Positions 1-38,210 of a stretch of 63,704 nucleotides of DNA are shown here, piece after piece. The stretch is from Gammaproteobacteria bacterium (GTDB taxonomy: Bacteria; Pseudomonadota; Gammaproteobacteria; UBA1113). The stretch lies in contig JAJNBM010000003.1 in assembly GCA_021156165.1 (NCBI GenBank), positions 67,817 through 131,520 of the forward strand. The letters run 5' to 3'. The notes under the pieces were generated by a model. That model was not told the origin of the DNA. It searched no databases and was given only the letters and a program-made list of their open reading frames with translations. Positions within the stretch are counted from its first letter, which is position 1; each line of letters starts with the position of its first letter. Made by a program: the position numbers and the translations under genes.

Positions 1-2190
1 CGGGTCGTTGGTGTAATCCGTACCCGAAAATAAATACAGTCTAGTATAGCCATCTTGATGCAATAGGTGAGCAATCTCTATTCCTGTTATATTTTCAGTC
101 TTAAATTGGTTATCAATAAGAAATTTGGTATCCTTAGCATAAAGATGCACATTATCTAAAAATTCTTTGGCAGTATAATAGCCGCAAACCTTATAATTTC
201 TATTTACGGAATAGTTAAATATAAAAGTGTCAACAAGTGATTTATAATCATCCACTACAACCAAATCTACAGTTCTTAACTTTTTAACGGCATTGGTTTC
301 GGATGTTTTTATAATTATCTCCACCTCCGATGCCAATGGCTTAGGCAAAATCTTGGTTTCAGTAACTTGGGCTAAATCGCGAATTCTTTGGTTATTATGG
401 TGGCTTGTTACCAAAATAGAACGCTTTACGCCGGTTTGTTTTACTACATCGAGACCATGTAAATTTTGACTCAGTAACTCATAGTCTGTTAACAAAAATA
501 TCTTGTCTTTCTCTTCTGAACTTAAGTGATTCATAAATGAAATGGCCACACGCCCATCTTTAAAATTTTTGCGCTCAATCTCGGGTGCTACTTGATTAAA
601 TCTGGCATCCCAAGCTCCATGGATCGACTCATCATCATCCAGAATGATAATTAAATCATCCTCGCACACTTCAATTTTCTCAGCAATCCAATTCGGCGCT
701 GCAATTTTTGGAAAAGTTAAAATTATTTTTGTTCCAATACCAATAGCAGTTTCTATATTTAAGGTTCCATTATTCTTTGCTAGAGTCGTTCTGATTTGTT
801 CAAACCCAATCCCATGCCCGTCACTTTTGCCAGAGGTCACTGCGGTATTGTTCAAGATATTGGCTTTTACTTCTTCTGGCATACCCTTACCGTTATCTTG
901 TATAATAATTTGCACAGTATTAGCAATTACTTCCAAGGAAGTGATTATTTCACCAATTTTGCCATCAAAAGCCTCTACAGCATTATTAATCAAATTGGAC
1001 ATCATGCGTTTAAATGTCTGCACGTCCACATTTAGAAAAGCGAAATATCCACTTGGACTAATACGAGTTATAAAATCTATCGATAATCGGCTATGTTCAT
1101 ATTTCTTCTCAGTAATAATCTCTAGCAGTTCAGCCGAAATGAGTGTAGAAACAGGAAAAGCTTCATCTGTAGCAACTGCGTCTTTTTTTACTAGTTTAAA
1201 TTGATTCAGTAGATTATTGGCAATATCTAAAATACGTGATGCAGATCTATTTAATGGCACACGCAAGTTTTCCGGTAATTTATTATTACATAATGGTAAA
1301 ATCATCTGTATTGAGGCAATGGGCGAGCGTATATCATGAACGACTTGCTCTACAATCTTTTTGAACTTTTGTTGTTGTTCCTGAACGATTTTATGAGCCT
1401 GATTTTCCAGCGCCAAACGTTCCGCATTCTTACGATCAGTAATATCCATAGATACACCCACGATGCCAATCACATTACCTTTAGAGTCACGAAGCTGACG
1501 TTTAGAAGAAAAAACGTATTTAGTTGTTTCATCTACCGGATTGGTAACAATTTCTTCTCCAGAATAACTTCCATGTTCTAAAACATACTGGTCAACGAGC
1601 TTAAACTTATCCGCTTCTTCTCTAGAGAATATATCATATTCAGTTTTACCGGCAATATCAAAACCCCATATATCTTTTTGGTATTGATTACAGGCAATAT
1701 AAGGCCCATCTTTATGCTTCCAGTAAATGAAGGCAGGAACCAGATCCACTATTTGTGCCGTTTTTAGTTCTTCTTCTCGAATCGCCAGTTGTTTTTCTTG
1801 CTCCATTTTATTTTTTATGTCAGTGATGCGAATCGAGCTTCCAAACACACCAACCACTGCCCCAGTGATATCGAGCAGTCTAGTCTTAGTGCTCAAATAA
1901 TATTCTAGCTGCCCATTGATCGTGGCAGATTCTTCGCCTACAAATGTAGCTTGTTGAATGGCTAGGGCATTGTTTTCTCTCATCTGATCCGCATCTTCTT
2001 TGCTATAAAAATCATAATCCGTTTTGCCTATAACTTGTGACCGATCTGTTAAGCTCAATATTTCAAGATAATGGCGGTTACAGCCCAAATAATGCCCCTC
2101 ACAATCCTTCCAGTAAACCGCAAGATCAATCATATCCAGTAATTGATATACGTCTTCTTTGTCCAGATTTTGCCGTATGACTTGTTGCAT
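1..2190 (-). CDS. Hybrid sensor histidine kinase: PAS-PAS-HisKA-HATPase_c plus two receiver-like domains (3' end runs off the window; absent from the supplied ORF track)
   Basis: My own reverse-strand translation from ATG 2190-2188 stays open for 730 codons to position 1 (MQQVIRQNLDKEDVYQLLDMIDLAVYWKDCEGHYLGCN...). H-box EQVVHDIRSPI (His codon 1338-1336). N-box NLINNAVEAF. G1 QDNGKGMPEE (900-871). G2 GHGIGF. Receiver patterns IIILDDDES..LLTDYEL..ILPKP and LVVVDD..FLIDNQF..LFSG follow. AAGGAG lies 11 nt upstream, inside the NRPS 3' end. Confidence 0.85.
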   Translation of the reverse strand, partial: MQQVIRQNLDKEDVYQLLDMIDLAVYWKDCEGHYLGCNRHYLEILSLTDRSQVIGKTDYDFYSKEDADQMRENNALAIQQATFVGEESATINGQLEYYLSTKTRLLDITGAVVGVFGSSIRITDIKNKMEQEKQLAIREEELKTAQIVDLVPAFIYWKHKDGPYIACNQYQKDIWGFDIAGKTEYDIFSREEADKFKLVDQYVLEHGSYSGEEIVTNPVDETTKYVFSSKRQLRDSKGNVIGIVGVSMDITDRKNAERLALENQAHKIVQEQQQKFKKIVEQVVHDIRSPIASIQMILPLCNNKLPENLRVPLNRSASRILDIANNLLNQFKLVKKDAVATDEAFPVSTLISAELLEIITEKKYEHSRLSIDFITRISPSGYFAFLNVDVQTFKRMMSNLINNAVEAFDGKIGEIITSLEVIANTVQIIIQDNGKGMPEEVKANILNNTAVTSGKSDGHGIGFEQIRTTLAKNNGTLNIETAIGIGTKIILTFPKIAAPNWIAEKIEVCEDDLIIILDDDESIHGAWDARFNQVAPEIERKNFKDGRVAISFMNHLSSEEKDKIFLLTDYELLSQNLHGLDVVKQTGVKRSILVTSHHNNQRIRDLAQVTETKILPKPLASEVEIIIKTSETNAVKKLRTVDLVVVDDYKSLVDTFIFNYSVNRNYKVCGYYTAKEFLDNVHLYAKDTKFLIDNQFKTENITGIEIAHLLHQDGYTRLYLFSGTDYTNDP

Positions 2191-2192
2191 TT

Positions 2193-5100
2193 TTAAACTA
2201 TCTCCTTAAGCAGTTTGCTGGAACTATACCATGAAACAATATTTTTGTATAGTATATCTACTTGATCAAGAAGAGTGAAATGATCTGCTTGCATTTTTAC
2301 TAACTCTATATTGGAAGCATCAATAATTTTATCTATATTATTATAATACAATTCAAGAACATAGTCGCTTTGAAATTTATAATTGTTAAAATATTTCCTC
2401 GTACCATATTGCATGGCTTTAAATAAGATTGCTTCTGAATATAATAATGGAGTGTCGGTAGTCTGTCTGGCTAATTGTATATCACTTGAAATGTTGGTAA
2501 TGATTTTATTAATCAAGTTCTCTTCATAATCTTGGCTTTCCAAAAATTGACGAAACAAAGCATTATCAATTTTTAACATATCGCCATAATAGTAGGATAA
2601 TTGATTATCGGTAAGTGCTGGATCTAGTAGAATGAGCTTAATAGATTGACAACCTTTCCTTTCCAAAATACTGGCCATCTCCAAAGCAATCTGCCCCCCT
2701 AAAGACCAGCCCAACAATAAATACGGTTGTTCAGATTGCTTCGTCATGGCTCTGACTTCATCAATTTCATACAAATAATATAATGCCAACTGATTCAAAT
2801 CTGTCATTTTTTCTTCATGATACAAATTATAATTTTCTATACCATAACAATTAAAGCGACTAGATAATTTGTCCGCTAAGGGTGCATATATTTCAATTCC
2901 CGAAAAAGCCGAGTGTACTATAAATAAATCTGGCTTATTATTATGAACTACACTGAATTTTGTAATCGGTTCAAATTTTGGATTGAAATGAGATACTAGA
3001 TCAGCTATTTTTTCCACTGTCTTTGCTTTAAAGATGTCTGCTATTTTTAACTGCACATCAAAATAAATATTAATTTCATTTAATAACTTAATCGCTGAAA
3101 GACTATCGCCACCTACCATAAAGAAACTATCGTTTTTTCCTACATCAGTTACCGTTTTTTTGCCTAACACCCTTGTGATTATGCTACAAATTTGTTTTTC
3201 ACATTTTGTTACTGGAGCAACATAATGCGCCAATGCTCTTAATTCCATTTTAAGCAAGGCACTTTTATCTAGCTTTCCATTTGTGGTTAAAGGCAAAGAG
3301 CTCAAATACACCAAAATAGTCGGTATCATATATTCAGGTAGTCGTTCATTCAAATAACGGAATAAAGTTGATTCATCTAACTTATAATCAGCGACATAAT
3401 AACCTATAAAATATTTATTACTTTGCCCCTCATCCACTGCCAAAACTACAGCTTGTTTAACTTGCGGATAGCTATAAAGCACAGCTTCAATTTCAGCGAT
3501 TTCCACCCTAAAACCCCGGATTTTTACTTGTGAGTCATTACGACCCATGTATTCTAGATTAAGGTCAGGTCTATAGCGCACTAAATCTCCTGTTTTATAG
3601 AGTCGGTCATTAATATTCTTCTCTTTTTCCTCTTTAGTTTGAAATGGATTTTTTATAAATTTATTTTGAGTTAATTCCGGTAAATTTAAATAACCTCGGG
3701 CTACACCAATGCCACCTATATACAACTCACCCACGGCACCTATGGGTAAAAGACGTCCAACGTCATCTAAAATATAGGCTTTTGTATTTTGAATTGGCTT
3801 ACCTATGAGATGAACTTGCCCATCTATTATTTTACAACCTGAGCAATAGATTGAAGTTTCCGTGGGGCCATAATAGTTAAATAAGTTTTTCTGCGCAGAC
3901 CAATATAAAGCCGTTTCTTTATCACAGGGTTCCCCAGCATAAATCAAATTTATTAAATCTGGATACGCTTGGCGTTTTATTAAAGACAGGATGGCCGGCG
4001 GCAGATAGCATACTTGGATTTTATGACTCAATAAGTAGTCACTTAATAAATTTGCATCTTTTCGTAGTTCATTTGATAATATATGAAGTTCACACCCATT
4101 CAATAAAGTCGCCATCATTTCTGATACTGAAACATCAAATACGTAAGCACAAAAGAATCCCACTTTGCTATTAGGTATTGCTGTATAGATATTTTTTATT
4201 GCAAATACCGTATTTAGAACACCACGGTGTTCAATCGCGACGCCTTTGGGATGGCCGGTAGTACCACTGGTATACATGACATAGGCCAAATGATAACTTT
4301 TCGCCCCTAATTCTGGACTGGCTATTGACTCCTGGCTTAAACAAGCTTGTAGTTTACTATTATCTATCCTTACAACTTCAAGAGACAAATTCCATTCTTT
4401 GAAAAAGGGTGATATCCTTTGCACATGATGTTCATTAGCAATAAGTAGTTTAGTTTTAGTATCTTTTAAAATATAGTGAATTCGCTCCAGAGGATAAGCC
4501 GGATCTATTGGAACATAGGCTGCGCCTGATTTAAGCACAGCAAGAATAGCTATTACCATAGTCTCAGTTCGATCTACACACAAAGCAATTAAGTCTTCTG
4601 GATGAATAGGATGTATGTTTCTTAGATAGTTTGCCAGTTGGTTGGCTTTTGCATTTAATTCCTCGTAAGTTAATTTTATATTTTCATAGACAATTGCAAT
4701 ACGATGAGGTGTTTTTTCCACTTGCTCTTCAAATAACTGCTGAATGGTTTTATCCCTATTACAATCCAGCCTCGGATTATCAAAAGTATAAATTAATTTG
4801 TTAAAGTCTACTTCATCTAAGCGCATTTTGTTTCTGGAATAGATTATATCTTGCAAACTTATTTTTAAATATTTAACAAAATATTCTAAATAGTCCGAAT
4901 CAACATATTCATCACTTACACTAATTTCCAATTTAAAATCATTACCATTTTGACGGTTCACACTTAATACAAAAGGAATATTGGTTTTGACATATTCTTC
5001 CAGTTTAACGATGGCATCTGATCTTTGTTGCAGGACATCAAAATTTGTAAAATTAAATACAAAGCTATATAAATCATGTCCAAGCATAGACTTGATATGT

Positions 5101-8100
5101 CCATAAGGCATATGCTTATATGGGCGTATTTTCACCTTTGTATCAAATGCCAACTGTATCCCAGAATCATTATCCCGTACTTCATTTAATTTAACTCTAA
5201 ATGGAATGGTATTCACAAACAAGCCAAATAATTCTTCACCCCCTTTTTGCTCGGGCCGATTGTTAACAACAAGCCCAATTGTAATATCATCATTATTCAA
5301 TAAAAAAGCTAAGGTTTTTATGTAAGCCCATAAAAAAACGCTGTCTACACTAACCTCGTTTTTATTCGCCAGTCTAAGTATACCTTGGCTCTCTTCCGAA
5401 GATAAACTAAATGACGCGCCAAGCAGTGCATTTTTTGACTTGGCATTTGTAAAATTCCATTTTATATTAGGCGCAGACACTTCATCTAAATATTCTTTCC
5501 AAAAATCAATTGTAAAAGTGTTATTAATTATAGCCAACTCATGTTTTACAAATTGCCCATAACATAAAGAACTTACTAATGGTTTAATAGGTTTATCGTA
5601 AACATAAGCTTGAGCAAATTCGTTTATTAGCATGGTCACACTCCAACCATCATTTATACTATGGTGACTGGAAAAAATGAAAGAGAACTTTTCATTTAAA
5701 TTGTTCACAATTAATCTAAACAATCCTGTCTTAGCACAGTTTACCGGGTTGTTACGTTCTTGATTAACTAATGTCTCAATATCTGCAGCGCGATGAATGA
5801 TAATCTGGATATAGTCTAATTTCTTTTTAACAATGGCGTTATAGCCATCGACCGTGCTTTTCACAAACCTTGCTCTTAACAATTCATGCTTTTGAGTTAA
5901 GTGATTCCAAACCTCTCTAAATTTACTTTCATTAAACGGCTTATTAACCATATAGCAGAATAAATTGTGATAGGTGGTTTTTTCACTGTGTAATTCCGAT
6001 TCTAATAACATGCCGGCTTGCAGATAACTAGCAGGATAAATATCCTCGACATTATCATCCAGCAGAAAATCTTTGTTTAAATTAATCAAGCTAAATTTAA
6101 CATATTCCTCGGGTACCTCTAACCCATCCTTTGAACCAGCAATAAAATCAGACAAATTAGAAACGTTTTTAGCCTCAAAGACGTTTTTAACAGTTATATT
6201 TCTATTAAAATCTGCTTTCAACCTGTTCGCCAACTTAATAGCCAGGATGCTATCTCCCCCTAATTTAAAAAAGCTATCATAAATACTAATTTGCTCGGAG
6301 TTGAGGCTTAACACTTCAGCATAAATCGCACATAACTGAACGTCTAATTCATGTCTCGGTGCGCTATAGGCTACATTACGCTTCAATTTTGGCTCTGGCA
6401 ATGCATTTCTATCAACTTTACCATTCAACGTCAGTGGTAGCTGCTTTAAATTCATTAAAGCAGCCGGAACCATGTAATTGGGAAGTCGTTGCTCCAAATA
6501 GTTTAGAAGGATTTCTTCATTTATTTGAATGTCCGACACATAATAAGCTGCTATATATTTGTTGTTGTGGCTATAAGAGTCAGTTTCATGTGTTTTCGCA
6601 ACAACAATGGCTTGTTTTATGTTCGGATACAGCAACAATATGGCTTCTATTTCGCCAGGTTCAACCCTAAACCCCCGAATTTTTAACTGACCGTCATCCC
6701 TACCAATATATTCTACGTTTCCGTCTGAACTATAACGAACCCAATCACCTGTTTTATAGAGACGATTATTTTTATGCGCAAATCTCTCTTCATCACTTTG
6801 GAAGGGATTATTAATAAATTTTTCTTTAGTTAGATCTGGTAAGTTTAGATAGCCTCGGGCTACTCCAATACCGCCTATATACAATTCACCCGCAGCGCCA
6901 ATAGGTACAGGATTGCCAATACCATCTAAAATATAGGCTTTTGCATTATGAATTGGCTTACCGATGAAATGAATTTGTCCATTCATTATTTTACAGCCTA
7001 AACAATAGATAGATGCCTCCGTTGGCCCATAGTAGTTAAATAAGTTTTTCTGTTTAGACCAGTATAAGCCAGTCTCTTTATCACACGGCTCTCCAGCATA
7101 CATCACATTGATTAAATCTGGGTACTCCTGACGTTTCATTAGGGATAAGAGTGCGGGTGGCAGATAACACACCTGAATTTTGTTAAGCAATAAATAGTCA
7201 CTTAATAGCGACACGTCTTTTCTCAGCTCATTGGATAATATATGGAGCTCACATCCATTCAGTAAAGGCCCCATCATTTCCGCTACTGAAACATCAAATA
7301 CATAAGAACAAAAAAAGGTAGTTTTGCTATTATCCACTACCGTATAGATATTTCTTATTGAGAATATTGTATTAACCACGCTTACATGTTCGACCATGAC
7401 ACCTTTAGGGCTGCCTGTAGTGCCACTGGTATACATGGTATAGGCCAAATGATTGCTTTTGGTACTGGACTGTGGATTCATTATTAACTTTTTAAATAAG
7501 TGTATTTGGGATTCACAATTATCAATCATAAAAATATCAAGAGATAAATCGTATTCTTTGCAAAAAGAAACCATTTTCTGTGCATGACGTTCATTTGTAA
7601 TTAATAGTTTAGGCCTAGTATCTTCCAGAATATAACGGATTCGCTCCATAGGATAATCTGGATCCAAGGGCACATAAGCTGCGCCTGATTTAAGCACGGC
7701 AAGAATAGCTATTATCATAGCCTCCGATCTATCTACGCATAAAGCAATTAAATCATCTGCTTTTATAGTATAGGTACTCTTCAGATAATGGGCTAATTGA
7801 TTTGCTCTTATGTTTAACTCATTATAGGTGAGTTTAATATTTTCATAGACAACAGCAATATTGTTAGGTGTTTTTATGACTTGCTCTTCAAACAATTGGT
7901 GGATGGTTTTATCTGTTGGAGAATCCATCTCAGTTTTATTCCACCCATAAACTATTTTCTGATACTCCGTATCCGTTAGTAGACTAATCGTACTCAAATC
8001 TTCATAGATAATAGGCTTATCCAATAGCACCCCTAAACAGTTGGCAATACTATTTATTTGCAGTTGATATACGCTATTACCACTGATTTTGAGCGCGCGG

Positions 8101-9509
8101 CCTTCTATGTTTATATACATTTTATGTCTATCAATATGCTCATCCGTTCTATGAAATGTTATGGCAATATCGGTCAACAATGATAAATGATGCCTATAAC
8201 CAAAGTCTTTCATTAAAAGATAGCAATTGTCTTTTAGCTGGTTTAAAGAGTCGGTTAACTCAGTAAAAGACTGAGCCAAGGTATTTCGACTAGCCCGTAT
8301 AAAATGACGTTTTTCTACAAGATTTTTCAGGGTTCTAGGTATGGTTTCATCAAAATTATATAAAGACAAAATAAAATCTTCATGAAAAAACCTAACTAAC
8401 ACAATGTAAATGATAGTTAGAGCCATGCTATTGCTAATCGAATCTGCTATAATAATATCTTTTGTATAATCATCTAAAGAATCACTTCCTATCGCATGAT
8501 TAAGAATTAATCTAGACGCATCGGCTTTATCTATAAATTCGCTGATTTGTTGCTTATATTTTGGTTCAAGCATTTTAACATTGGATATATACGACAAATC
8601 ATCCTGGCTTAATCTATATGGTTTTGATAGGAGAGTAGGTGTAATCGCCATATTGGTCTTATGACCATAAATATCTAGAGCAGTATTGAAAACATTTTCT
8701 TTTACATATTCTTTAAATTTACCAGACTTAAATAAGTTTCTATTTGGATCCTCTAGTATATAAAATCTATCATTTACAAAAATCTTAACGCTAGCCACTG
8801 AATTAACATATCCCTCGCCAAAAGTTAATCCCCGCACTAATTTATCTAAAGTAGCTAAGTCCTCGATTCCATTGACAAGTCCGTAATTCTCTGGGATATG
8901 TCTTAATCCATAGTAAGTTCTGTTTAATATATTTTGTTTGAACGTAGACAATGTCCCTGTATTAATCCTATTTATTGCCTCTTGAAATAAAGTGAGGAGG
9001 CTTTCGCTACATTTTAAATTTAATGATATCGTGGTTTCGTTCTCTTCAATTGGAACCGCAGATTGCAACGCGATATCCCCAGCATCAATCGCAGAGGTTA
9101 TGCAATGCAATGTAACTCCATGCGTTTTTTCGCCATTAATAATCGCCCAGGTGGTACTATTCACACCGGCATAGCGAGGCAGTAAGCTATCATGGTAGTT
9201 CAGTGCCAAAGTTATCTTATTTTGCTGAAAAAAGGATTCGGGAATTACATGCGGATTAGCAATACTAAAAAAATAAAACTTATTGTTATTAATTTCGGCT
9301 AAGCTGGCAAAGGGCAAAACCAAAATTGAATTCTGATTGCACCATTTAACAACAGTTCGATCGTTTGATATAACAGAGACTATTTCCCAACTGTTATCCC
9401 TTAATAGATGCTCTATACATTGGATACATAATTTTGTTTCACCTATTATTAATACTTTCTTTTTAAATAGTAATTCTCTAGAAGTATTCATATTAGCTAA
9501 ATACCACAC
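2193..9509 (-). CDS. Non-ribosomal peptide synthetase, F-(linker)-A-T-C-A-T-TE (N-terminal formyltransferase domain, two modules, terminal thioesterase)
   Basis: 2438-aa ORF. Formyltransferase motifs LALNYHDSLLPRYAG and IDAGDI. A1 motifs LAYTMYTSGTTGSPKGV, FNYYGPTE, GELYIGGIGVARGYLN, YKTGDWVRY, LKIRGFRVEPGEIE, NGKVDR. T1 LGGDS (6263-6249). C domain HHSINDGW (5666-5643). A2 LAYVMYTSGTTGHPKGV..NGKLDK. T2 VGGDS (3116-3101). TE GWSLGG (2714-2695) and a late DHF. Start is uncertain: GTG at 9509 or ATG at 9491. Confidence 0.93.
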   Translation of the reverse strand: MWYLANMNTSRELLFKKKVLIIGETKLCIQCIEHLLRDNSWEIVSVISNDRTVVKWCNQNSILVLPFASLAEINNNKFYFFSIANPHVIPESFFQQNKITLALNYHDSLLPRYAGVNSTTWAIINGEKTHGVTLHCITSAIDAGDIALQSAVPIEENETTISLNLKCSESLLTLFQEAINRINTGTLSTFKQNILNRTYYGLRHIPENYGLVNGIEDLATLDKLVRGLTFGEGYVNSVASVKIFVNDRFYILEDPNRNLFKSGKFKEYVKENVFNTALDIYGHKTNMAITPTLLSKPYRLSQDDLSYISNVKMLEPKYKQQISEFIDKADASRLILNHAIGSDSLDDYTKDIIIADSISNSMALTIIYIVLVRFFHEDFILSLYNFDETIPRTLKNLVEKRHFIRASRNTLAQSFTELTDSLNQLKDNCYLLMKDFGYRHHLSLLTDIAITFHRTDEHIDRHKMYINIEGRALKISGNSVYQLQINSIANCLGVLLDKPIIYEDLSTISLLTDTEYQKIVYGWNKTEMDSPTDKTIHQLFEEQVIKTPNNIAVVYENIKLTYNELNIRANQLAHYLKSTYTIKADDLIALCVDRSEAMIIAILAVLKSGAAYVPLDPDYPMERIRYILEDTRPKLLITNERHAQKMVSFCKEYDLSLDIFMIDNCESQIHLFKKLIMNPQSSTKSNHLAYTMYTSGTTGSPKGVMVEHVSVVNTIFSIRNIYTVVDNSKTTFFCSYVFDVSVAEMMGPLLNGCELHILSNELRKDVSLLSDYLLLNKIQVCYLPPALLSLMKRQEYPDLINVMYAGEPCDKETGLYWSKQKNLFNYYGPTEASIYCLGCKIMNGQIHFIGKPIHNAKAYILDGIGNPVPIGAAGELYIGGIGVARGYLNLPDLTKEKFINNPFQSDEERFAHKNNRLYKTGDWVRYSSDGNVEYIGRDDGQLKIRGFRVEPGEIEAILLLYPNIKQAIVVAKTHETDSYSHNNKYIAAYYVSDIQINEEILLNYLEQRLPNYMVPAALMNLKQLPLTLNGKVDRNALPEPKLKRNVAYSAPRHELDVQLCAIYAEVLSLNSEQISIYDSFFKLGGDSILAIKLANRLKADFNRNITVKNVFEAKNVSNLSDFIAGSKDGLEVPEEYVKFSLINLNKDFLLDDNVEDIYPASYLQAGMLLESELHSEKTTYHNLFCYMVNKPFNESKFREVWNHLTQKHELLRARFVKSTVDGYNAIVKKKLDYIQIIIHRAADIETLVNQERNNPVNCAKTGLFRLIVNNLNEKFSFIFSSHHSINDGWSVTMLINEFAQAYVYDKPIKPLVSSLCYGQFVKHELAIINNTFTIDFWKEYLDEVSAPNIKWNFTNAKSKNALLGASFSLSSEESQGILRLANKNEVSVDSVFLWAYIKTLAFLLNNDDITIGLVVNNRPEQKGGEELFGLFVNTIPFRVKLNEVRDNDSGIQLAFDTKVKIRPYKHMPYGHIKSMLGHDLYSFVFNFTNFDVLQQRSDAIVKLEEYVKTNIPFVLSVNRQNGNDFKLEISVSDEYVDSDYLEYFVKYLKISLQDIIYSRNKMRLDEVDFNKLIYTFDNPRLDCNRDKTIQQLFEEQVEKTPHRIAIVYENIKLTYEELNAKANQLANYLRNIHPIHPEDLIALCVDRTETMVIAILAVLKSGAAYVPIDPAYPLERIHYILKDTKTKLLIANEHHVQRISPFFKEWNLSLEVVRIDNSKLQACLSQESIASPELGAKSYHLAYVMYTSGTTGHPKGVAIEHRGVLNTVFAIKNIYTAIPNSKVGFFCAYVFDVSVSEMMATLLNGCELHILSNELRKDANLLSDYLLSHKIQVCYLPPAILSLIKRQAYPDLINLIYAGEPCDKETALYWSAQKNLFNYYGPTETSIYCSGCKIIDGQVHLIGKPIQNTKAYILDDVGRLLPIGAVGELYIGGIGVARGYLNLPELTQNKFIKNPFQTKEEKEKNINDRLYKTGDLVRYRPDLNLEYMGRNDSQVKIRGFRVEIAEIEAVLYSYPQVKQAVVLAVDEGQSNKYFIGYYVADYKLDESTLFRYLNERLPEYMIPTILVYLSSLPLTTNGKLDKSALLKMELRALAHYVAPVTKCEKQICSIITRVLGKKTVTDVGKNDSFFMVGGDSLSAIKLLNEINIYFDVQLKIADIFKAKTVEKIADLVSHFNPKFEPITKFSVVHNNKPDLFIVHSAFSGIEIYAPLADKLSSRFNCYGIENYNLYHEEKMTDLNQLALYYLYEIDEVRAMTKQSEQPYLLLGWSLGGQIALEMASILERKGCQSIKLILLDPALTDNQLSYYYGDMLKIDNALFRQFLESQDYEENLINKIITNISSDIQLARQTTDTPLLYSEAILFKAMQYGTRKYFNNYKFQSDYVLELYYNNIDKIIDASNIELVKMQADHFTLLDQVDILYKNIVSWYSSSKLLKEIV

Positions 9510-9698
9510 TAATAAACATATTACCTACCTTAAACATTATAATTTATTATACTAACTATGATATGCCTTTATCCTAGAACATTTAACTACCATAATAATA
9601 TAAGCGTTAGTAGATAATAATAGCACGATTTACTGCTAATATTCAACTTAATCAGCAGAAACGTGAAGTCTGTCTCGAGCGGGGGTTGGATATAAGCA

Positions 9699-29203: not shown

Positions 29204-29290
29204 GCCGGAGTGGCGAAATTGGTAGACGCGCCGGACTCAAAATCCGGTGGTGGCAACACCGTGTCGGTTCGAGTCCGACCCCCGGCACCA
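29204..29290 (+). tRNA. tRNA-Leu (anticodon CAA)
   Basis: GCCGGAGTGGCGAAATTGGTAGACGCGCCGGACTCAAAATCCGG + long variable arm + GTCGGTTCGAGTCCGAC + CCCCGGCACCA. One A-C mismatch in the acceptor stem; CCA is encoded. Confidence 0.9.
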
Positions 29291-29293
29291 TCT

Positions 29294-29608
29294 CTACTTA
29301 AAAAATACTTTCGCACTTGCTGAAAGTTGTGACCAGTAGGGAATAATGATAAATACCACGCCCAAAATAAAATAAATAATGGGTTTAGAAAGTGTGACCT
29401 GGATAGGATTTTTGCGATGATCCATGTATTGCATCACTGCTCCCATCAAAAAAGCGATACCCGCAATCATACTGATGGCAATTAACATTTTTTGAACCCC
29501 TGTTAAAGGCCCTAGAGCTGCGTGCGAAACATCCCCGAGGGAAGGAGCTGCTTGGGTAATAACCCCATAAAAAGTAAGTGCTAAATAAGTGATTATTTTT
29601 TTATACAT
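29294..29608 (-). CDS. Small secreted/membrane protein (signal peptide plus two TM helices)
   Basis: MYKKIITYLALTFYGVITQAAP.. then MLIAISMIAGIAFLMGAVM and IIYFILGVVFIIIPYW. The track ORF start (29668) overlaps tRNA-His, so the internal ATG at 29608 is preferred. Confidence 0.5.
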   Translation of the reverse strand: MYKKIITYLALTFYGVITQAAPSLGDVSHAALGPLTGVQKMLIAISMIAGIAFLMGAVMQYMDHRKNPIQVTLSKPIIYFILGVVFIIIPYWSQLSASAKVFFK

Positions 29609-29635
29609 GGCTTTTTTATTTAATAATACTAAAGT

Positions 29636-29712
29636 TGGGGTGAACGATGGGGCTCGAACCCACGACAACCGGAATCACAATCCGGGGCTCTACCAACTGA
29701 GCTACGTCCACC
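29636..29712 (-). tRNA. tRNA-His (anticodon GTG)
   Basis: Reverse complement GGTGGACGTAGCTCAGTTGGTAGAGCCCCGGATTGTGATTCCGG..GTGGGTTCGAGCCCCATCGTTCACCCCA. The extra 5' G(-1) typical of tRNA-His is present. Confidence 0.92.
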
Positions 29713-29713
29713 A

Positions 29714-29845
29714 TGGCGCTTTTTGCATTTGACTTTTAGGCTTTGTTAACTTCGCCCCTTTCACAAAAATCATGTATCAGTGCATACACTTCTTTTGCTC
29801 GAAGGCGCCTTGCCTCGCCTAAAACCCACCTGCTATGAGCTCTTC
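29714..29845. repeat. Family-2 MITE-like element (spacer between tRNA-Arg and tRNA-His), most diverged copy
   Basis: ..TTTTGCATTTGACTTTTAGGCTTTGTT..CATGTATCAGTGCATACAC..CGCCTAAAACCCACCTGCTATGAGCTC. Confidence 0.8.
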
Positions 29846-29848
29846 TTT

Positions 29849-29925
29849 TGGTGCGCCCGGCAGGATTCGAACCTGCTACCCTCGGCTTAGAAGGCCGATG
29901 CTCTATCCGAATGAGCTACGGGCGC
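29849..29925 (-). tRNA. tRNA-Arg (anticodon TCT)
   Basis: Reverse complement GCGCCCGTAGCTCATTCGGATAGAGCATCGGCCTTCTAAGCCGAGGGTAGCAGGTTCGAATCCTGCCGGGCGCACCA. Confidence 0.92.
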
Positions 29926-29938
29926 TTTAAAACCTAGT

Positions 29939-30064
29939 TATAGTCTTCGCATTTGGTTTAGGCTTTGTTGGCTGCGTCCATCTCTCCAAAGTCATGTATC
30001 AGTGCATACACTCCTTTGGCTCGAGGACTTGCCACCTCGCCTAAAAATCAACTGCTATGACATA
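29939..30064. repeat. Family-2 MITE-like element (spacer between tRNA-Pro and tRNA-Arg)
   Basis: TATAGTCTTCGCATTTGGTTTAGGC...GCCTAAAAATCAACTGCTATGACATAT. Confidence 0.85.
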
Positions 30065-30088
30065 TATGCGCTAACCGCAAAAAATTGA

Positions 30089-30162
30089 TCGGGGTAGAGG
30101 GATTTGAACCCCCGACATCCTGCTCCCAAAGCAGGCGCGCTACCAGACTGCGCTATACCCCG
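30089..30162 (-). tRNA. tRNA-Pro (anticodon TGG)
   Basis: Reverse complement CGGGGTATAGCGCAGTCTGGTAGCGCGCCTGCTTTGGGAGCAGGATGTCGGGGGTTCAAATCCCTCTACCCCGA. CCA is not encoded. Confidence 0.9.
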
Positions 30163-32813: not shown

Positions 32814-33004
32814 TAACGGGACGTTTGTTATTATTCTAATAATATATTAGTTTCCAAGCTTGGTTCCTATGATATTATTAAAAAAACATTTAAAAGTGAT
32901 TTATTTTTGTTCGCAACTTCTTCAAGTATAAAATTGAGTGCTTACCGCATTCATTCTACATATTGCACCCTACTGTTTTAAAAATACGTCCCCTAAAATA
33001 TAGG

Positions 33005-33033
33005 TTGATATAATGTATCTTTTAGGCTAGACT
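33005..33033 (+). promoter_or_regulatory. Candidate promoter of the heme-oxygenase-like gene
   Basis: TTGATA, 17-nt spacer, TAGACT; 34 nt before the ATG at 33067, which has AGGAGA upstream. Confidence 0.35.
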
Positions 33034-33066
33034 CACTATCACAGAATGCCTAGACAGGAGAAAAGA

Positions 33067-33822
33067 ATGAAATCATTAATATTGCTAGTCAATACTATTA
33101 AATCACACCAATCGGTTAATAATCAATTCTATGACATCTGGATGAATGAAGAATTATCTGCGCAAGGAATAAGTATATTTGCTAGAAATTATTGGGAGTG
33201 GGCTTACCAATTTCCAATCATATTGGCGGGGCTTATTGCTCGCACGGAAAATATTGCTGCCCGCACAGAATATACAAAGACACTTTTTTCAGAGATGGGC
33301 GATGGCGATGTTAACCGTGTACATTCTACTTTATTTGAAGTGTTTCATGACTGTTTAACAACACAAATGGGGAATCCACAACAAACCTTGGCGAAAATAA
33401 AGCACATAACGCCACTGCTTAATGGAACACAAAAATTAATTAGTTGGCAAAAAGAAGTTTATTCTACAAATCCCGCCGTAGCCGTGGGTGCACAACTTGC
33501 TTTAGAATGGCAAGCCTACACAATGCTTAGTAAGTTATATGAAGGGGCGCGAAATTATATGCACTTATGGAAAAATATGGATGATTTTCATGGGGCATGC
33601 GAATTTTTTTATGCGCACATCGGTGCAGCTGAGAAGGAGCATAAAAAAGAATCTATCAATGCAGCAGAAAGACTTATTCATGAAGGCGCTCCTTTTGCTG
33701 ATATAGAGTTAGGTTTTAATAAAAATTTAGAATTAATCGCTAATTTCTGGGCTGATATTGCCAATGAAGTACGGCCAACAGCCGTTAAGAAAGGCTCTAC
33801 CAGTGAATTAGCTTACTTGTAA
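33067..33822 (+). CDS. Heme-oxygenase-like di-iron (CADD/PqqC/TenA-type, iron-containing redox enzyme) family protein
   Basis: Helical protein with NQFYDIWMNEELS..ARNYWEWAYQFP, TLFSEMGDGDVNRVHSTLFEVF, LALEWQAY and FFYAHIGAAEKEHKKE. This parallels the CADD pattern (FYVKW..; DEENGYPNHIDLW; YSYESQ; EHEEADVRH). The preferred start MKSLILL has a good SD. Confidence 0.65.
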   Translation: MKSLILLVNTIKSHQSVNNQFYDIWMNEELSAQGISIFARNYWEWAYQFPIILAGLIARTENIAARTEYTKTLFSEMGDGDVNRVHSTLFEVFHDCLTTQMGNPQQTLAKIKHITPLLNGTQKLISWQKEVYSTNPAVAVGAQLALEWQAYTMLSKLYEGARNYMHLWKNMDDFHGACEFFYAHIGAAEKEHKKESINAAERLIHEGAPFADIELGFNKNLELIANFWADIANEVRPTAVKKGSTSELAYL

Positions 33823-35210
33823 CTCGTGTTTATTCTCATAAAGGGTATAAGGGCAAAAAGTAACATCGCCACACCTAGGATAGCACTTGCTATCACTAGA
33901 AAGAAAATTTCGAAGTGACTTTCGTTTTGATAAGATATTTGCGCTGTTATTTTGGCAATTAGCCCCGATAAATAGCCCGAAAAAGATAAGAGAAAATAGA
34001 AAATACCCATGAAGAAGTTCCTTTGTCTTACTGGTGCATATTCACTAATTAATGAAATAGAAACTGGAATGATAGATAATTCACCTATAGATAGAAAAAA
34101 ATTTGCGAATAGTATACTCAATATAGCCGCGTGACTCTCGAGAAGATTAATTTTAACACTGACAGCAAACAACATAAAAGCTATAGCCGTCGCAGATAGT
34201 CCAACAGCAATTTTAACATGGGATATTTCTGCGCCATATTTACCCCCCAGCCCCAGCCATTGCCAGACATAAGTAATAGGCGCTGCAACAATAAAAACAG
34301 AAATAGCCTCTATTGAGCTAAACCAAGTCACGGGCAATTTAAATCCAAAAAAAGTCGTATTCACATTTTCATTAATAAAGATGGTCACAGATGAAAAAAC
34401 TTGTAATAAGGCTATGAAAAATAAAATGCTGGCTATCAGTGGAATCCATAGATTTCCTACATTCCTTCTTTCTACAGCCGAATAACCAGCAAATAACTTA
34501 TATAAGTAACCTATAAGAAATAGCGCCGCGGGAGCAAAAATATAAAAAATAGAGACTATTTTAGCTACAACCAAATAGATAATAATCATATAAGGCAGTA
34601 TTAAAGCGGCAGCCGCTCCAACTCTTTTTTCTCCCCTACGCTTAACGATTCTATGTTGCGTGCTATGCAGCATAACCATATTGAGGATTAAAATAAGCGC
34701 GCTCATCCCAAAACCTATCCAATATTTTTGTAAGGAGATACCAATGCCATAAAAAATAGGCCCTAAAATACTACCTATATTCCCTAGAGTATAAAAATAA
34801 ACAAAAAGTTTATTGTTTTTAGACATTTTATTGTGCAAAATACCTACGAGTGTAGAGGTAGCTGGTTTCATTAAACCAATAGCTACAATAATAAGGGTCA
34901 TACCAGCAAAAAATAGATTCATTTTTACAGCATAAATAATAATCAGGTTGCCCATAAACATACAAGTCGTTCCTAAAAAAACAGACTGGTATGGTGCAAG
35001 AAACTTATCGGCAATCATACCCCCTAAAATACAGCTTGCAAAAGTCAATGCCACATATTGGCCATAAACTGTATAACTAAAAGCCGTGCTAACATTAAAA
35101 TGTGCAATCAAATATAGAACTAATAAGGACTGTAATCCATAGTAGTTTAATCTATCACAAAACTCTGAGAAAGAAATTTTTAGAAAGTGAGCCTTTAATG
35201 TTGGCGCCAT
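33813..35210 (-). CDS. POT/PTR2-family (proton-dependent oligopeptide) MFS transporter
   Basis: N-terminal FSEFCDRLNYYGLQSLLVLYL matches the POT ExxERFxYYG signature region; about 12-14 TM segments. ATG at 35210 has AAGGA upstream and lies 4 nt after the stop of the preceding gene. Confidence 0.7.
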   Translation of the reverse strand: MAPTLKAHFLKISFSEFCDRLNYYGLQSLLVLYLIAHFNVSTAFSYTVYGQYVALTFASCILGGMIADKFLAPYQSVFLGTTCMFMGNLIIIYAVKMNLFFAGMTLIIVAIGLMKPATSTLVGILHNKMSKNNKLFVYFYTLGNIGSILGPIFYGIGISLQKYWIGFGMSALILILNMVMLHSTQHRIVKRRGEKRVGAAAALILPYMIIIYLVVAKIVSIFYIFAPAALFLIGYLYKLFAGYSAVERRNVGNLWIPLIASILFFIALLQVFSSVTIFINENVNTTFFGFKLPVTWFSSIEAISVFIVAAPITYVWQWLGLGGKYGAEISHVKIAVGLSATAIAFMLFAVSVKINLLESHAAILSILFANFFLSIGELSIIPVSISLISEYAPVRQRNFFMGIFYFLLSFSGYLSGLIAKITAQISYQNESHFEIFFLVIASAILGVAMLLFALIPFMRINTSYK

Positions 35211-35214
35211 ACTT

Positions 35215-36531: not shown

Positions 36532-36559
36532 ATCACATCTCCCGTTTATGTTGACTACT

Positions 36560-37774: not shown

Positions 37775-37931
37775 ACTACTCCTTCTGTCTCAATATACCT
37801 ATCATAAAGTAAAATTGTCTTATTGTCCAAATTAAAAGATAAAAATATTTACACCCTATTTGTCCCCCGTCCCAATTGACAGGGGTAGGGTTGCCGGGCA
37901 GGGCAAAAACTGTGGGGTTTCAATCTAATGG

Positions 37932-38147
37932 TTAGACATCATCATTTGCATCTTTATCCATTTCACTACTAGAATTTAACTTCTTTTCGTTCTGAATACG
38001 CAGATAAATTTCAGAGCGGTGTACACTTACATCTTTTGGCGCTTCAATGCCTAGACGAACTTGACCACCTTTAATATCTAATACGGTAATGTGGATATCA
38101 TCACCAATGATCAGAGTTTCTCCAAAATAGCGGGTTAAAACTAGCAT
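37932..38147 (-). CDS. CsrA-family RNA-binding regulator paralogue with acidic C-terminal tail
   Basis: [55 protein letters not shown] aligns along its length with canonical CsrA. R7 is replaced by Tyr, and there is an extra tail [24 protein letters not shown] is present. Confidence 0.85.
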
Positions 38148-38210
38148 CTTCTTATCTCCTATATTTTATTTCAATTTAAATAATACGCGTATAAATTTCC
38201 ACATGCTTTT

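What the first reader, a model, noticed from the sequence alone, without database searches (positions are those of the whole stretch)
1..2210. PAS-PAS hybrid histidine kinase translationally coupled to the NRPS (and missed by the ORF track)
The kinase ATG (2190-2188) lies 2 nt after the NRPS stop codon (2195-2193). An AAGGAG sits inside the NRPS 3' end, so the two genes are almost certainly co-transcribed and coupled. The kinase has two PAS sensor domains, a complete HisKA/HATPase core and two receiver-like domains, and it continues beyond the window. A synthetase for a small peptide fused in an operon to a cytoplasmic multi-PAS phosphorelay kinase resembles a signal-producer/sensor pair. I do not know of a described formyl-peptide-based equivalent.
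Basis: partly seen in the sequence, partly recalled or inferred. Interest (0 to 1): 0.7.

Follow-up and report, generated by a model that had tools for sequence, protein, structure and literature searches.

The report
Peptide synthetase wired to its sensor kinase
A small peptide-making enzyme and a soluble sensor kinase lie 2 bases apart here. The same kinase family sits directly after, or is fused to, similar small-molecule synthetases in 21 of 46 related uncultured bacterial genomes, which points to an undescribed "make a molecule and sense it" signalling unit.

Summary
The NRPS (F-A-T-C-A-T-TE, 9491..2193, minus strand) ends in TAA at 2195-2193. The kinase ATG is at 2190-2188. The only AAGGAG in 9.5 kb of coding strand lies 11 nt upstream of that ATG.

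The kinase is soluble: PAS-PAS-DHp-CA-REC-REC, 754 aa. Only 24 aa lie beyond the window. A convergent gene follows, and no Hpt or response regulator is nearby.

The pairing is strongly conserved:
- Two orthologous metagenome loci keep the same TAA-AA-ATG junction.
- In 79 genome loci carrying this kinase family, 29 loci (21 of 46 genomes) have an NRPS or NRPS-PKS immediately upstream on the same strand. Two loci have one on any other side.
- In 7 of those loci the synthetase and kinase form one ORF (C-A-T-R::PAS-HK-REC-REC, about 2,100 aa).
- FeeM-like N-acyl-amino-acid synthase::kinase fusions also exist.
- The PAS domains track the synthetase, while the kinase core does not.
- A close relative lacks the whole 9.9-kb low-GC cassette at this site.

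Best reading: a dedicated synthetase-sensor module in which the PAS domains read the enzyme's product. This is inferred and untested. I found no description in the searched literature.

The parts
1..2190 (-). Soluble hybrid histidine kinase gene, codons 1-730 of 754. The last 24 codons and the stop lie left of the window.
   Evidence: Translation; identical full-length protein P0001; locus L003 extends the contig; no TM segment, maximum Kyte-Doolittle 19-residue score 1.52.
1816..2145 (-). PAS domain 1 (aa 16-125)
   Evidence: Pfam PAS_4, residues 22-124; AF2 PAS fold, pLDDT above 90.
1426..1758 (-). PAS domain 2 (aa 145-255), next to the DHp helices
   Evidence: Second PAS_4 stretch and PAS_9, residues 159-252; AF2 model; 79-82% identical in the two orthologues, more than any other kinase domain.
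1186..1425 (-). DHp (HisKA-like) helices with the phospho-acceptor His285 (codon 1338-1336) in HDIRSP
   Evidence: Weak Pfam HisKA, residues 280-329; H285 invariant in 73 sequences; AF2 helices 251-301 and 307-330.
691..1158 (-). Catalytic ATP-binding (CA, HATPase_c) domain
   Evidence: Pfam HATPase_c, residues 389-495, E = 1.3e-14; N399/N403, D432-G434-G436 and G458-G460-G462 invariant.
301..678 (-). Receiver-like domain 1 (aa 505-630) with D518/D519, D569 (codon 486-484), T595 and K617
   Evidence: These residues are invariant in 73 homologues; AF2 (beta-alpha)5 order; NCBIfam NahK/ErcS hybrid kinase model spans 278-619; weak PDB hit to the NtrC receiver; many homologues carry PF00072.
1..273 (-). 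Receiver-like domain 2 (aa 640-754, cut by the window end) with D648, D693 and K741
   Evidence: These residues are conserved in at least 90% of 73 homologues; weak PDB profile hits, all to receiver proteins 3kto and 5tqj; AF2 beta-alpha order with helix 4 missing.
2191..2207 (-). Coupling junction: AAGGAG (2207-2202) inside the NRPS 3' end, NRPS stop TAA (2195-2193), a 2-nt spacer, then the kinase ATG (2190-2188)
   Evidence: Sequence; the only AAGGAG in 9.5 kb of coding strand, built from minority codons; the same AAGGAG...TAA-AA-ATG arrangement in orthologous loci L084 and L086.
2193..9491 (-). NRPS gene, 2,432 aa, F-A-T-C-A-T-TE. Approximate domain positions: F 8592-9491, A1 6372-7934, T1 6117-6359, C 4827-6059, A2 3252-4754, T2 2982-3224, TE 2196-2939.
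   Evidence: Pfam Formyl_trans_N, AMP-binding x2, PP-binding x2, Condensation and Thioesterase; motifs HHxxxDG, GGDS x2 and GWSLG; the JGI gene call starts at the same ATG.
9492..9698 (-). 207-nt AT-rich (30% GC) intergenic region upstream of the NRPS. It holds a promoter-like site (TTGAAT, 18 nt, TG-TATTAT) at 9646-9617 and is the likely start of the two-gene operon.
   Evidence: Sequence; consensus scan, which finds such sites at chance frequency overall; GC content. Function is not shown.

Best explanation
The NRPS and the kinase form a two-gene operon. This operon is one member of a conserved class of "synthetase plus dedicated sensor kinase" modules.

Proposed mechanism:
1. The NRPS makes a small N-formylated dipeptide. 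The F domain formylates residue 1. Two 67%-identical A domains with unusual specificity codes load two similar amino acids. The TE domain releases the product.
2. The cytoplasmic PAS domains of the kinase, which is made next to the synthetase, recognise that product. Alternatively they recognise the loaded or releasing end of the synthetase itself.
3. This recognition controls autophosphorylation at His285 and transfer to Asp569 in REC1. REC2 acts as a second acceptor or a regulatory receiver.
4. The output goes either to an unlinked Hpt/response regulator or directly back onto the synthetase.

Shown here: the gene and domain anatomy, the conserved adjacency and fusions, and the co-variation of PAS with the synthetase. 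Inferred: the product structure, ligand binding, the direction of control and the output.
For: 1. Tight junction. A 2-nt gap follows a unique, codon-disfavoured AAGGAG. The same junction is kept in two orthologous loci whose NRPS C-termini are 73-79% identical.
2. Family-wide linkage. Of 79 genome loci from 46 species-level genomes, 29 loci in 21 genomes have a thiotemplate synthetase ending directly upstream of the kinase on the same strand. Gaps are about 80 nt or less, by a first-ATG heuristic. As an internal control, A or KS domains occur upstream on the same strand in 27 loci, upstream on the opposite strand in 1, and downstream in 2 (1 on each strand), over comparable sequence lengths (635 vs 557 kb).
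3. Gene fusions. Seven loci in 4 genomes have a single ORF. Among the top 150 representatives in the 1.84-billion-protein library, six clusters are 2,015-2,401 aa long. Four of these were checked by Pfam and are C-A-T-R-PAS-HATPase proteins carrying the REC-REC tail.
4. Diverse partners, constant kinase. Partners include F-A-T-C-A-T-TE or -R, F-A-T-R, C-A-T-R, NRPS-PKS hybrids and FeeM-like N-acyl amino acid synthase fused to PAS-HK (P0095 and L039). All are makers of small capped amino-acid derivatives.
5. The enzyme always sits N-terminal to PAS-DHp, which is the position of an input domain in histidine kinases (established knowledge of kinase architecture).
6. PAS tracks the synthetase. In the two orthologues with the same NRPS, the PAS domains are 68-82% identical, while DHp-CA is 59% and REC2 33-41%. 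Paralogues with a closer core (L005, 73%; L007, 65%) but a different or absent synthetase have PAS identity of only 34-37%. A Mantel test over 19 pairs gives r = 0.35 (p about 0.001) for last A domain versus adjacent PAS, and r = 0.13 (p = 0.16) for A domain versus kinase core.
7. Gain or loss as a unit. In the close relative Bin_72_2 (L039), a single AAA/DUF4143 ORF replaces the 9.9-kb cassette between the same flanking genes. The cassette is 34-37% GC, against about 39-46% in the neighbouring genes and 3-kb blocks.
8. Precedent. RpfS, a soluble kinase, binds the self-made signal DSF through a PAS_4 domain (PMC4504480).
Against: - There are no expression, chemistry or binding data.
- No Hpt or response regulator lies in the window or in the 12 kb to its left, so the output is unknown.
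- About 50 of the 79 family loci show no synthetase. Some have tandem kinases or unrelated neighbours, so coupling to an enzyme is frequent but not universal.
- PAS-synthetase co-variation would also arise if PAS merely docks onto its synthetase, or from cassette co-inheritance combined with recombination in the kinase core.
- The Mantel signal is modest and rests on 19 pairs and tblastn-delimited segments.
- No solved PAS structure is close enough to suggest a ligand.
Confidence: 0.5

Rival explanations
1. The kinase is a regulator of the synthetase and does not read its product. The PAS domains sense an unrelated cellular or host cue such as redox state, oxygen or a metabolite. The REC domains then switch the adjacent or fused synthetase on or off by direct contact, as the RpfC receiver does with the DSF synthase RpfF. 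Alternatively they act through a distant response regulator.
For: PAS domains often sense general cues (established knowledge). The two receiver domains have no attached output domain, and no Hpt or response regulator is nearby, which fits a protein-protein output. Fusion to the enzyme is natural for an allosteric regulator. The RpfC-RpfF precedent is listed in PMC4504480. The Foldseek hits include ShkA, a DHp-CA-REC1-REC2 kinase, which from my own knowledge is controlled through its first, pseudo-receiver domain.
Against: A general cue predicts PAS domains conserved across paralogues. Instead they are the most divergent part between paralogues (26-44% identity) and the most conserved part between orthologues that share the same NRPS (68-82%). 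The enzyme lies N-terminal to the sensor, in the input position rather than the output position.
Confidence: 0.3
2. The kinase is an ordinary cluster-situated transcriptional regulator. It is one half of a two-component system that controls expression of the NRPS gene, as in many biosynthetic gene clusters, with no direct biochemical link to the enzyme.
For: Two-component genes are common in biosynthetic clusters (established knowledge; for example the survey PMC10663231, listed, which I did not read). The adjacency alone would fit this.
Against: No DNA-binding response regulator is adjacent here, in the orthologues, or in most paralogous loci. The only recurrent REC-containing protein is present in 7 of 79 loci and at variable distance. 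The kinase is the last gene of the operon it would be regulating. Recurrent in-frame fusion to the enzyme in at least 4 genomes and 6 protein clusters is not expected for a purely transcriptional regulator.
Confidence: 0.12
3. The adjacency is fortuitous or an assembly artefact, and the two genes have unrelated roles.
For: Two other assemblies of the same sequence break inside the TE-coding region. One pair of contigs ends at window base 2426 and another contig at 2572.
Against: The junction itself (about 2190) lies inside contigs L003 and L004, which also carry 231 nt of the TE end. The Pfam TE match is continuous across positions 2426-2572. Orthologue L084 carries A-T-TE plus the kinase on one contig. 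The strong strand and side asymmetry across 79 loci excludes chance.
Confidence: 0.02

Closest known systems
DSF (rpf) quorum sensing in Xanthomonas: synthase RpfF, hybrid kinase RpfC, soluble PAS_4 kinase RpfS
   Same: The signal synthase gene is adjacent to a hybrid sensor kinase. The RpfC receiver domain binds the synthase directly. RpfS is a soluble kinase that binds the self-made signal through a PAS_4 domain (PMC4504480). The PAS domains here are of the PAS_4 type, and the kinase is soluble and hybrid.
   Different: The synthase there is a crotonase-family enzyme making a fatty acid, not a thiotemplate enzyme. RpfC is membrane-bound and carries an Hpt domain. An RpfG partner is encoded nearby. 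I know of no synthase-kinase fusion in that system.
Alpha-hydroxyketone autoinducer systems: CqsA/CqsS (Vibrio) and LqsA/LqsS/LqsT with LqsR (Legionella)
   Same: A dedicated autoinducer synthase gene lies next to its cognate sensor kinase gene in gammaproteobacteria, including relatives of the lineages that carry this family. This comparison rests on my own knowledge. A Legionella Lqs paper, PMC8419707, appeared but I did not read it.
   Different: The synthases are PLP-dependent acyltransferases. The sensors are six-TM membrane kinases with no PAS domains. The response regulator LqsR is encoded within that cluster, whereas none is found here. No fusions are known.
Formylating NRPS initiation modules (LgrA of linear gramicidin type)
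   Same: An N-terminal formyltransferase domain is followed by A-T. Formyl_trans_N scores 64.5 bits against a cut-off of 26.1, and the SLLPRYAG and IDAGDI motifs are present.
   Different: This is a two-module, TE-terminated enzyme predicted to make only a formyl-dipeptide. Its A-domain codes (DVAAMAYIYK and DVSAIAYIYK) match no code I can recall. No kinase partner has been described for LgrA (own knowledge).
ShkA of Caulobacter (DHp-CA-REC1-REC2 hybrid kinase, PDB 6qrj)
   Same: It has the same C-terminal layout of a kinase core followed by two receiver-type domains. It is a Foldseek hit at E = 1.8e-17.
   Different: ShkA has no PAS domains and no enzyme partner. Its REC1 is a degenerate pseudo-receiver that responds to c-di-GMP (own knowledge), whereas REC1 here keeps every phospho-acceptor residue.
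NRPS-derived small signals made by reductase-terminated synthetases (PvfC of Pseudomonas; AusA of Staphylococcus)
   Same: These are small one- or two-module synthetases releasing amino-aldehyde-derived molecules that have been proposed as signals (own knowledge). AusA is the top NCBIfam match of the NRPS here, though far below its cut-off (934 vs 2500 bits). The commonest partner in this family is C-A-T-R.
   Different: To my knowledge no dedicated receptor kinase is encoded next to, or fused with, those synthetases. The window's enzyme ends in TE, not R.
FeeM-type N-acyl amino acid synthases
   Same: A FeeM-like GNAT domain replaces the NRPS as the N-terminal partner of the same kinase family. 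This is seen in P0095 (30 bits against a cut-off of 27) and in the close relative L039 (24 bits, below the cut-off).
   Different: FeeM itself is a stand-alone enzyme in a fatty-acid-linked cluster (own knowledge). The window does not contain one.

Membership tests
Hybrid histidine kinase (two-component phosphorelay sensor) | DHp domain with a conserved phospho-acceptor histidine (H-box) | tested here: met
   HDIRSP with His285 is invariant in 73 homologues. AF2 shows a two-helix DHp. Pfam HisKA is only weak (21.4 bits against a cut-off of 26.9).
Hybrid histidine kinase (two-component phosphorelay sensor) | GHKL ATP-binding domain with N, G1 and G2 boxes | tested here: met
   HATPase_c scores 55 bits against a cut-off of 26.4. 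N399/N403, DxGxG and GxGxG are invariant.
Hybrid histidine kinase (two-component phosphorelay sensor) | Fused receiver domain with the acidic pair, acceptor Asp, Thr/Ser and Lys | tested here: met
   REC1 has D518/D519, D569, T595 and K617, all invariant, and a (beta-alpha)5 fold. REC2 keeps D648, D693 and K741 in at least 90% of sequences. Sequence-profile support is weak.
Hybrid histidine kinase (two-component phosphorelay sensor) | Downstream Hpt domain or protein and a terminal response regulator | tested here: not met
   The protein has no Hpt domain and ends 24 aa beyond the window. No such gene lies in L003 or in the window. One may be encoded elsewhere in the genome.
Hybrid histidine kinase (two-component phosphorelay sensor) | Autophosphorylation and phosphotransfer activity | not testable with these tools
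   This needs purified protein and radiolabelled ATP or Phos-tag assays.
NRPS with a formylating initiation module | F-A-T start followed by C-A-T and a release domain, with intact core motifs | tested here: met
   Pfam architecture. Motifs: FD..(A4), NxYGPTE (A5), GK.D (A10), HHxxxDG, GGDS x2 and GWSLG.
NRPS with a formylating initiation module | Formyl transfer to the first amino acid; identity of the product | not testable with these tools
   This needs heterologous expression and mass spectrometry. The A-domain codes were derived by hand and are unassigned.
Autoinducer synthase / sensor kinase pair (Cqs, Lqs, Rpf type) | Synthase and cognate sensor kinase genes adjacent and co-inherited | tested here: met
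   2-nt gap; conserved in orthologues; 29 of 79 family loci; the cassette is absent as a unit in a close relative.
Autoinducer synthase / sensor kinase pair (Cqs, Lqs, Rpf type) | The sensor binds the synthase's product | not testable with these tools
   Only indirect evidence: PAS co-varies with the synthetase.
Autoinducer synthase / sensor kinase pair (Cqs, Lqs, Rpf type) | The signal is released and accumulates with cell density; membrane receptor (Cqs, Lqs, RpfC) | tested here: not met
   The kinase has no TM segment and no exporter gene is linked. The soluble RpfS is the exception within these systems. Density dependence cannot be tested here.
Autoinducer synthase / sensor kinase pair (Cqs, Lqs, Rpf type) | Synthase of the CqsA/LqsA (PLP) or RpfF (crotonase) family | tested here: not met
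   The synthase here is a thiotemplate NRPS.

The most novel reading that the evidence does not exclude
A large, undescribed family of soluble hybrid kinases uses a small-molecule synthetase as its input module. The family comprises 218 clusters at 50% identity with E <= 1e-30 to its REC-REC tail. The synthetase may be an NRPS, an NRPS-PKS or a FeeM-like enzyme, and it is either translationally coupled or covalently fused to the kinase. The enzyme makes a capped amino-acid derivative in cis, and the neighbouring PAS domain reads it. Each cassette is therefore a private chemical channel. Several orthogonal cassettes coexist in one genome, with up to three seen so far. This would be a new class of bacterial self-signalling or cell-cell signalling system in uncultured, probably host-associated Gammaproteobacteria. 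It would also be the first case of an NRPS built into a two-component sensor.
Probability: 0.35. Interest if true: 0.88.

Novelty: new variant of a known kind. Interest (0 to 1): 0.78.

Why it matters
1. It would link orphan small NRPS products directly to a receptor. The cognate sensor is encoded next door or in the same polypeptide, which is rare for non-ribosomal peptides.
2. NRPS::histidine-kinase fusion proteins are, as far as I could find, an undescribed architecture. They raise a concrete and testable question: does an assembly line feed its product straight into a PAS pocket?
3. The family is abundant in uncultured gammaproteobacterial lineages, many labelled Legionellales or Coxiellaceae. 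Signalling in those lineages is known only from the Lqs system of Legionella.
4. The matched synthetase/PAS pairs form a natural library of ligand-sensor pairs that could be mined for biosensors.

Tried and rejected
- Exact-sequence look-up of the NRPS, with either start codon, found nothing. The contig was extended instead through the PP-loop gene and the kinase.
- Pfam and NCBIfam did not detect receiver domains in the window copy. A PDB profile search gave only weak receiver hits. The receiver call therefore rests on invariant residues, the AF2 fold and PF00072 hits in homologues.
- The promoter/terminator consensus scan was uninformative. It found 51 promoter-like sites against 47 expected, with no terminator at the junction or after the kinase.
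- I looked for a third conserved partner by clustering all ORFs in the 79 loci. Only an aldo-keto reductase (6 loci, beside C-A-T-R genes) and a REC-plus-unknown-domain protein (7 loci, variable distance) recur, and neither is in the window.
- A PDB sequence search with the two PAS domains gave no hit, so no ligand could be suggested by homology.
- A word-indexed search with an R-PAS-HK segment recovered few fusions. The exhaustive search with the REC-REC tail worked better.
- Six literature searches were run; five looked for NRPS or N-acyl-synthase links to histidine kinases or PAS domains and found no description of this pairing or fusion, and the sixth retrieved the Rpf precedent.
- An Ffh search could not place the organism more precisely than an uncultured gammaproteobacterium. 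Named relatives are about 65% identical or less.
- An assembly chimera was considered and rejected (see rival explanations).

Full report
**Observation.** On the minus strand the sequence reads ...CTT AAG GAG ATA GTT TAA aa ATG CAA CAA....
- The NRPS stop is at 2195-2193, the kinase ATG at 2190-2188, and AAGGAG at 2207-2202, 11 nt before the ATG.
- AAGGAG occurs only once in the 9,491 nt of coding strand that span both genes.
- It is built from Lys-AAG and Glu-GAG, the minority codons in this AT-rich gene (20% and 32% usage).
- The kinase frame is open from 2190 to base 1 (730 codons). The ORF listing omits it only because it runs off the window end.

**The kinase.** An identical full-length protein (P0001) is 754 aa, so only 24 residues lie beyond the window.
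- A metagenome contig identical to window bases 1-2426 (L003) shows what follows the kinase stop: 102 nt, then a convergent uridine-kinase-like gene. No Hpt or response-regulator gene lies in the next 10 kb.
- Pfam finds PAS_4 twice and HATPase_c. HisKA is below its cut-off, and no receiver is detected.
- In an alignment of 73 homologues, the H-box histidine (H285 in HDIRSP), the N/G1/G2 boxes and the REC1 residues D518/D519, D569, T595 and K617 are invariant.
- D648, D693 and K741 of a second receiver-like domain are conserved in at least 90% of those sequences.
- An AlphaFold2 model (mean pLDDT 90) gives PAS, PAS, DHp, CA and two (beta-alpha)5-type domains. The second lacks helix 4.
- Foldseek matches PAS-kinases (WalK, NifL, LOV-HK) and ShkA, a kinase core followed by two receiver-type domains.
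- A PDB profile search with the REC-REC tail gives only weak hits, all to receiver domains.
- There is no transmembrane segment.

**The NRPS.** It starts at ATG 9491, which is also the JGI gene call. Its architecture is F-A-T-C-A-T-TE, with intact HHxxxDG, GGDS (twice) and GWSLG motifs.
- The two A domains are 67% identical.
- Motif-anchored reading gives the ten-residue codes DVAAMAYIYK and DVSAIAYIYK. I derived these by hand and cannot assign them to a substrate.
- The predicted product is a small N-formyl dipeptide. This is an inference from the domain order.

**Context.** The rest of the window is core chromosome. It includes:
- rpsB-tsf-pyrH-frr-uppS-cdsA-rseP-bamA-skp-lpxD-fabZ-lpxA-lpxB
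- mutS and ffh
- leucine catabolism genes
- biotin synthesis genes

None of these encodes a response regulator or an Hpt protein.
- The cassette is 34-37% GC, against about 39-46% in the neighbouring genes and 3-kb blocks.
- A close relative, Gammaproteobacteria bacterium Bin_72_2 (L039), has a PP-loop protein 92% identical to the window's and collinear flanks at 75-85% nucleotide identity.
- In that relative a single AAA/DUF4143 ORF of about 1.5 kb sits between the uridine-kinase-like gene and the PP-loop gene. The window has the 9.9-kb NRPS-plus-kinase cassette at that position.
- The two genes are therefore present or absent as a unit.
- Ffh places the organism only as an uncultured gammaproteobacterium. 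Named relatives are about 65% identical or less.

**Orthologues.** The two closest kinases, P0002 (62% identical) and P0003 (60%), come from other metagenomes.
- Each is preceded by the 3' end of an NRPS gene that is 79% and 73% identical to the window's.
- Each has the same AAGGAG...TAA-AA-ATG junction.

**The family.** A scan of one genome per species returned 79 loci from 46 genomes. All are metagenome-assembled or uncultured gammaproteobacteria or betaproteobacteria-labelled bins, often with several paralogues per genome.
- Mapping NRPS/PKS and kinase domains by tblastn shows a thiotemplate synthetase ending directly upstream of the kinase, on the same strand, in 29 loci from 21 genomes.
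- By a first-ATG heuristic, gaps range from an apparent overlap to about 80 nt.
- The flanks serve as an internal control. A or KS domains occur upstream on the same strand in 27 loci, upstream on the opposite strand in 1, and downstream in 2 (1 on each strand), over similar amounts of sequence.
- In 7 loci from 4 genomes the synthetase and kinase are a single ORF. Four of the seven were confirmed by Pfam. Examples are:
  - C-A-T-R::PAS-HK-REC-REC, 2,109 aa in L011 and 2,401 aa in L027
  - F-A-T-R::PAS-HK-REC-REC, 2,158 aa in L010
- An exhaustive search of 1.84 billion representative proteins with the REC-REC tail finds 218 clusters at E <= 1e-30 and 1,126 at E <= 1e-10.
- Six of the top 150 representatives are 2,015-2,401 aa long. 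The four I checked are C-A-T-R-PAS-HATPase proteins carrying the REC-REC tail.

**Partners differ while the kinase stays the same.** Besides F-A-T-C-A-T-TE or -R and C-A-T-R, the upstream enzymes include the following:
- NRPS-PKS hybrids: A-T-KS-AT-T, C-A-T-KS-AT-KR-T-TE and C-A(MT)-T-KS-AT-T-TE.
- A FeeM-like N-acyl amino acid synthase fused to PAS-HK, in P0095 and in the close relative L039.
- In loci without a thiotemplate enzyme, a GNAT acetyltransferase (L064) and an ATP-grasp ligase (L053; its ORF cluster recurs in 4 loci).
- One protein, P0101, has half a condensation domain directly in front of the DHp helices.

All of these enzymes make small, N-capped amino-acid derivatives. All sit N-terminal to the PAS-DHp unit, where kinases carry their input domains.

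**PAS follows the synthetase.**
- Against the two orthologues that share the same NRPS, PAS1 and PAS2 are 68-82% identical. This is as conserved as the NRPS itself. DHp-CA is 59% and REC2 33-41%.
- Paralogues with a closer transmitter core but a different or absent synthetase have PAS domains only 34-37% identical. L005 has a 73% identical core and an A-T-KS-AT-T partner. L007 has a 65% identical core and no synthetase.
- Over 19 pairs, distances between the last A domains correlate with distances between the adjacent PAS domains (Mantel r = 0.35, p about 0.001). They do not correlate significantly with distances between kinase cores (r = 0.13, p = 0.16).
- A rough NJ tree places the window kinase in a clade where 12 of 13 members are synthetase-linked.

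**Interpretation.** The most economical reading is a dedicated synthetase-sensor module. The PAS domains recognise the product of the cognate enzyme, or the enzyme's releasing end. They gate His285 autophosphorylation and transfer to Asp569.
- The output is unknown. It may be an unlinked Hpt or response regulator, or direct feedback on the enzyme through the receiver domains, as RpfC does with RpfF.
- RpfS shows that a soluble PAS_4 kinase can bind a self-made signal (PMC4504480).
- The main rival is that the kinase senses something else and controls the synthetase. The PAS divergence pattern argues against a generic cue but does not exclude docking-type specificity.
- A plain cluster-situated transcriptional regulator fits poorly with the fusions and with the absence of a DNA-binding partner.
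- Chance adjacency or misassembly is excluded.

**Novelty.** Five of six full-text searches looked for NRPS or N-acyl-synthase links to histidine kinases or PAS domains and returned nothing relevant; the sixth retrieved the Rpf precedent.
- No source names these proteins beyond generic labels.
- Conceptually this is a synthase/sensor-kinase pair, which is a known kind (Cqs, Lqs, Rpf).
- It differs in three ways: a thiotemplate synthase, a soluble PAS hybrid kinase with two receivers, and recurrent covalent fusion.
- I therefore rate it a new variant of a known kind.

**Limits.**
- All functional statements are inferred from sequence.
- Domain boundaries in related loci come from tblastn with window-derived queries.
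- Kinase start sites in related loci were chosen by a first-ATG heuristic.
- Most genomes are MAGs with unreliable taxonomic labels.
- About 50 of the 79 family loci show no synthetase neighbour.

Noticed in passing
window 2426-2572 (inside the TE-coding part of the NRPS): Two independent assemblies of the same sequence break here. A JGI contig and a Logan contig end at base 2426, and another JGI contig ends at 2572. The window contig bridges the gap with an intact TE reading frame. The cause (coverage dip or strain variation) was not examined.
   Followed up: partly
window 3252-4754 and 6372-7934: The two adenylation domains of the NRPS are 67% identical, with near-identical and unusual specificity codes (DVAAMAYIYK and DVSAIAYIYK). 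This suggests an internal module duplication and a near-homodipeptide product.
   Followed up: partly
window 33000-38900: A low-GC stretch (about 36%) holds a POT/PTR2 peptide transporter gene (33813-35237) and two ORFs of 438 and 404 aa (35215-36531 and 36560-37774) with no Pfam match. About 1.1 kb of sequence with no ORF of 100 aa or more follows.
   Followed up: no
window 43008-44021 (minus strand): A 337-aa protein with an ankyrin-repeat match lies in another low-GC stretch between a squalene/phytoene synthase-like gene and lpxB. This eukaryote-like feature is typical of host-associated bacteria.
   Followed up: no
window 29204-30162: A cluster of four tRNA genes (Leu-CAA, His-GTG, Arg-TCT, Pro-TGG). 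The ORF listed at 29294-29668 between them is probably spurious.
   Followed up: no
window 644-1204 (plus strand) and 6359-6670 (plus strand): ORFs of 186 and 103 aa listed by the ORF tool lie antisense inside the kinase and NRPS genes. They are almost certainly not genes.
   Followed up: no
L039 8348-11870 (close relative Bin_72_2): At a different site, between the GDPD and CinA genes, this relative carries its own family kinase. A FeeM-like GNAT::PAS ORF runs into the kinase frame through a frameshift (a pseudogene or a sequencing error). A small HATPase_c-only protein is encoded on the opposite strand just upstream.
   Followed up: partly
L017 6139-12160; also L030, L038, L045, L056, L063: Family kinases also occur as tandem arrays of two or three paralogues without a synthetase between them. 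In L063 a second kinase follows the synthetase-linked one.
   Followed up: no
L015, L018, L027, L032, L037, L050 (next to C-A-T-R genes): An aldo-keto reductase gene recurs beside reductase-terminated synthetase-kinase cassettes in 6 loci. This hints that the released aldehyde is reduced further to an alcohol.
   Followed up: partly
L017, L024, L031, L038, L042, L050, L060: A 336-358-aa protein with an N-terminal receiver-like domain and an unknown C-terminal domain lies within a few kb of family kinases in 7 loci, at variable distance and orientation. It is a candidate downstream partner but is absent from the window.
   Followed up: partly
L087 206-2431 (protein P0101): A 741-aa protein in which the N-terminal half of an NRPS condensation domain (with HHxxxDG) replaces the PAS domains directly in front of DHp-CA-REC-REC. 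Only 205 nt of upstream sequence are available.
   Followed up: partly
L003 5234-8836: A 1,200-aa ORF with no Pfam hit on record lies about 2.7 kb beyond the kinase end, outside the window.
   Followed up: no
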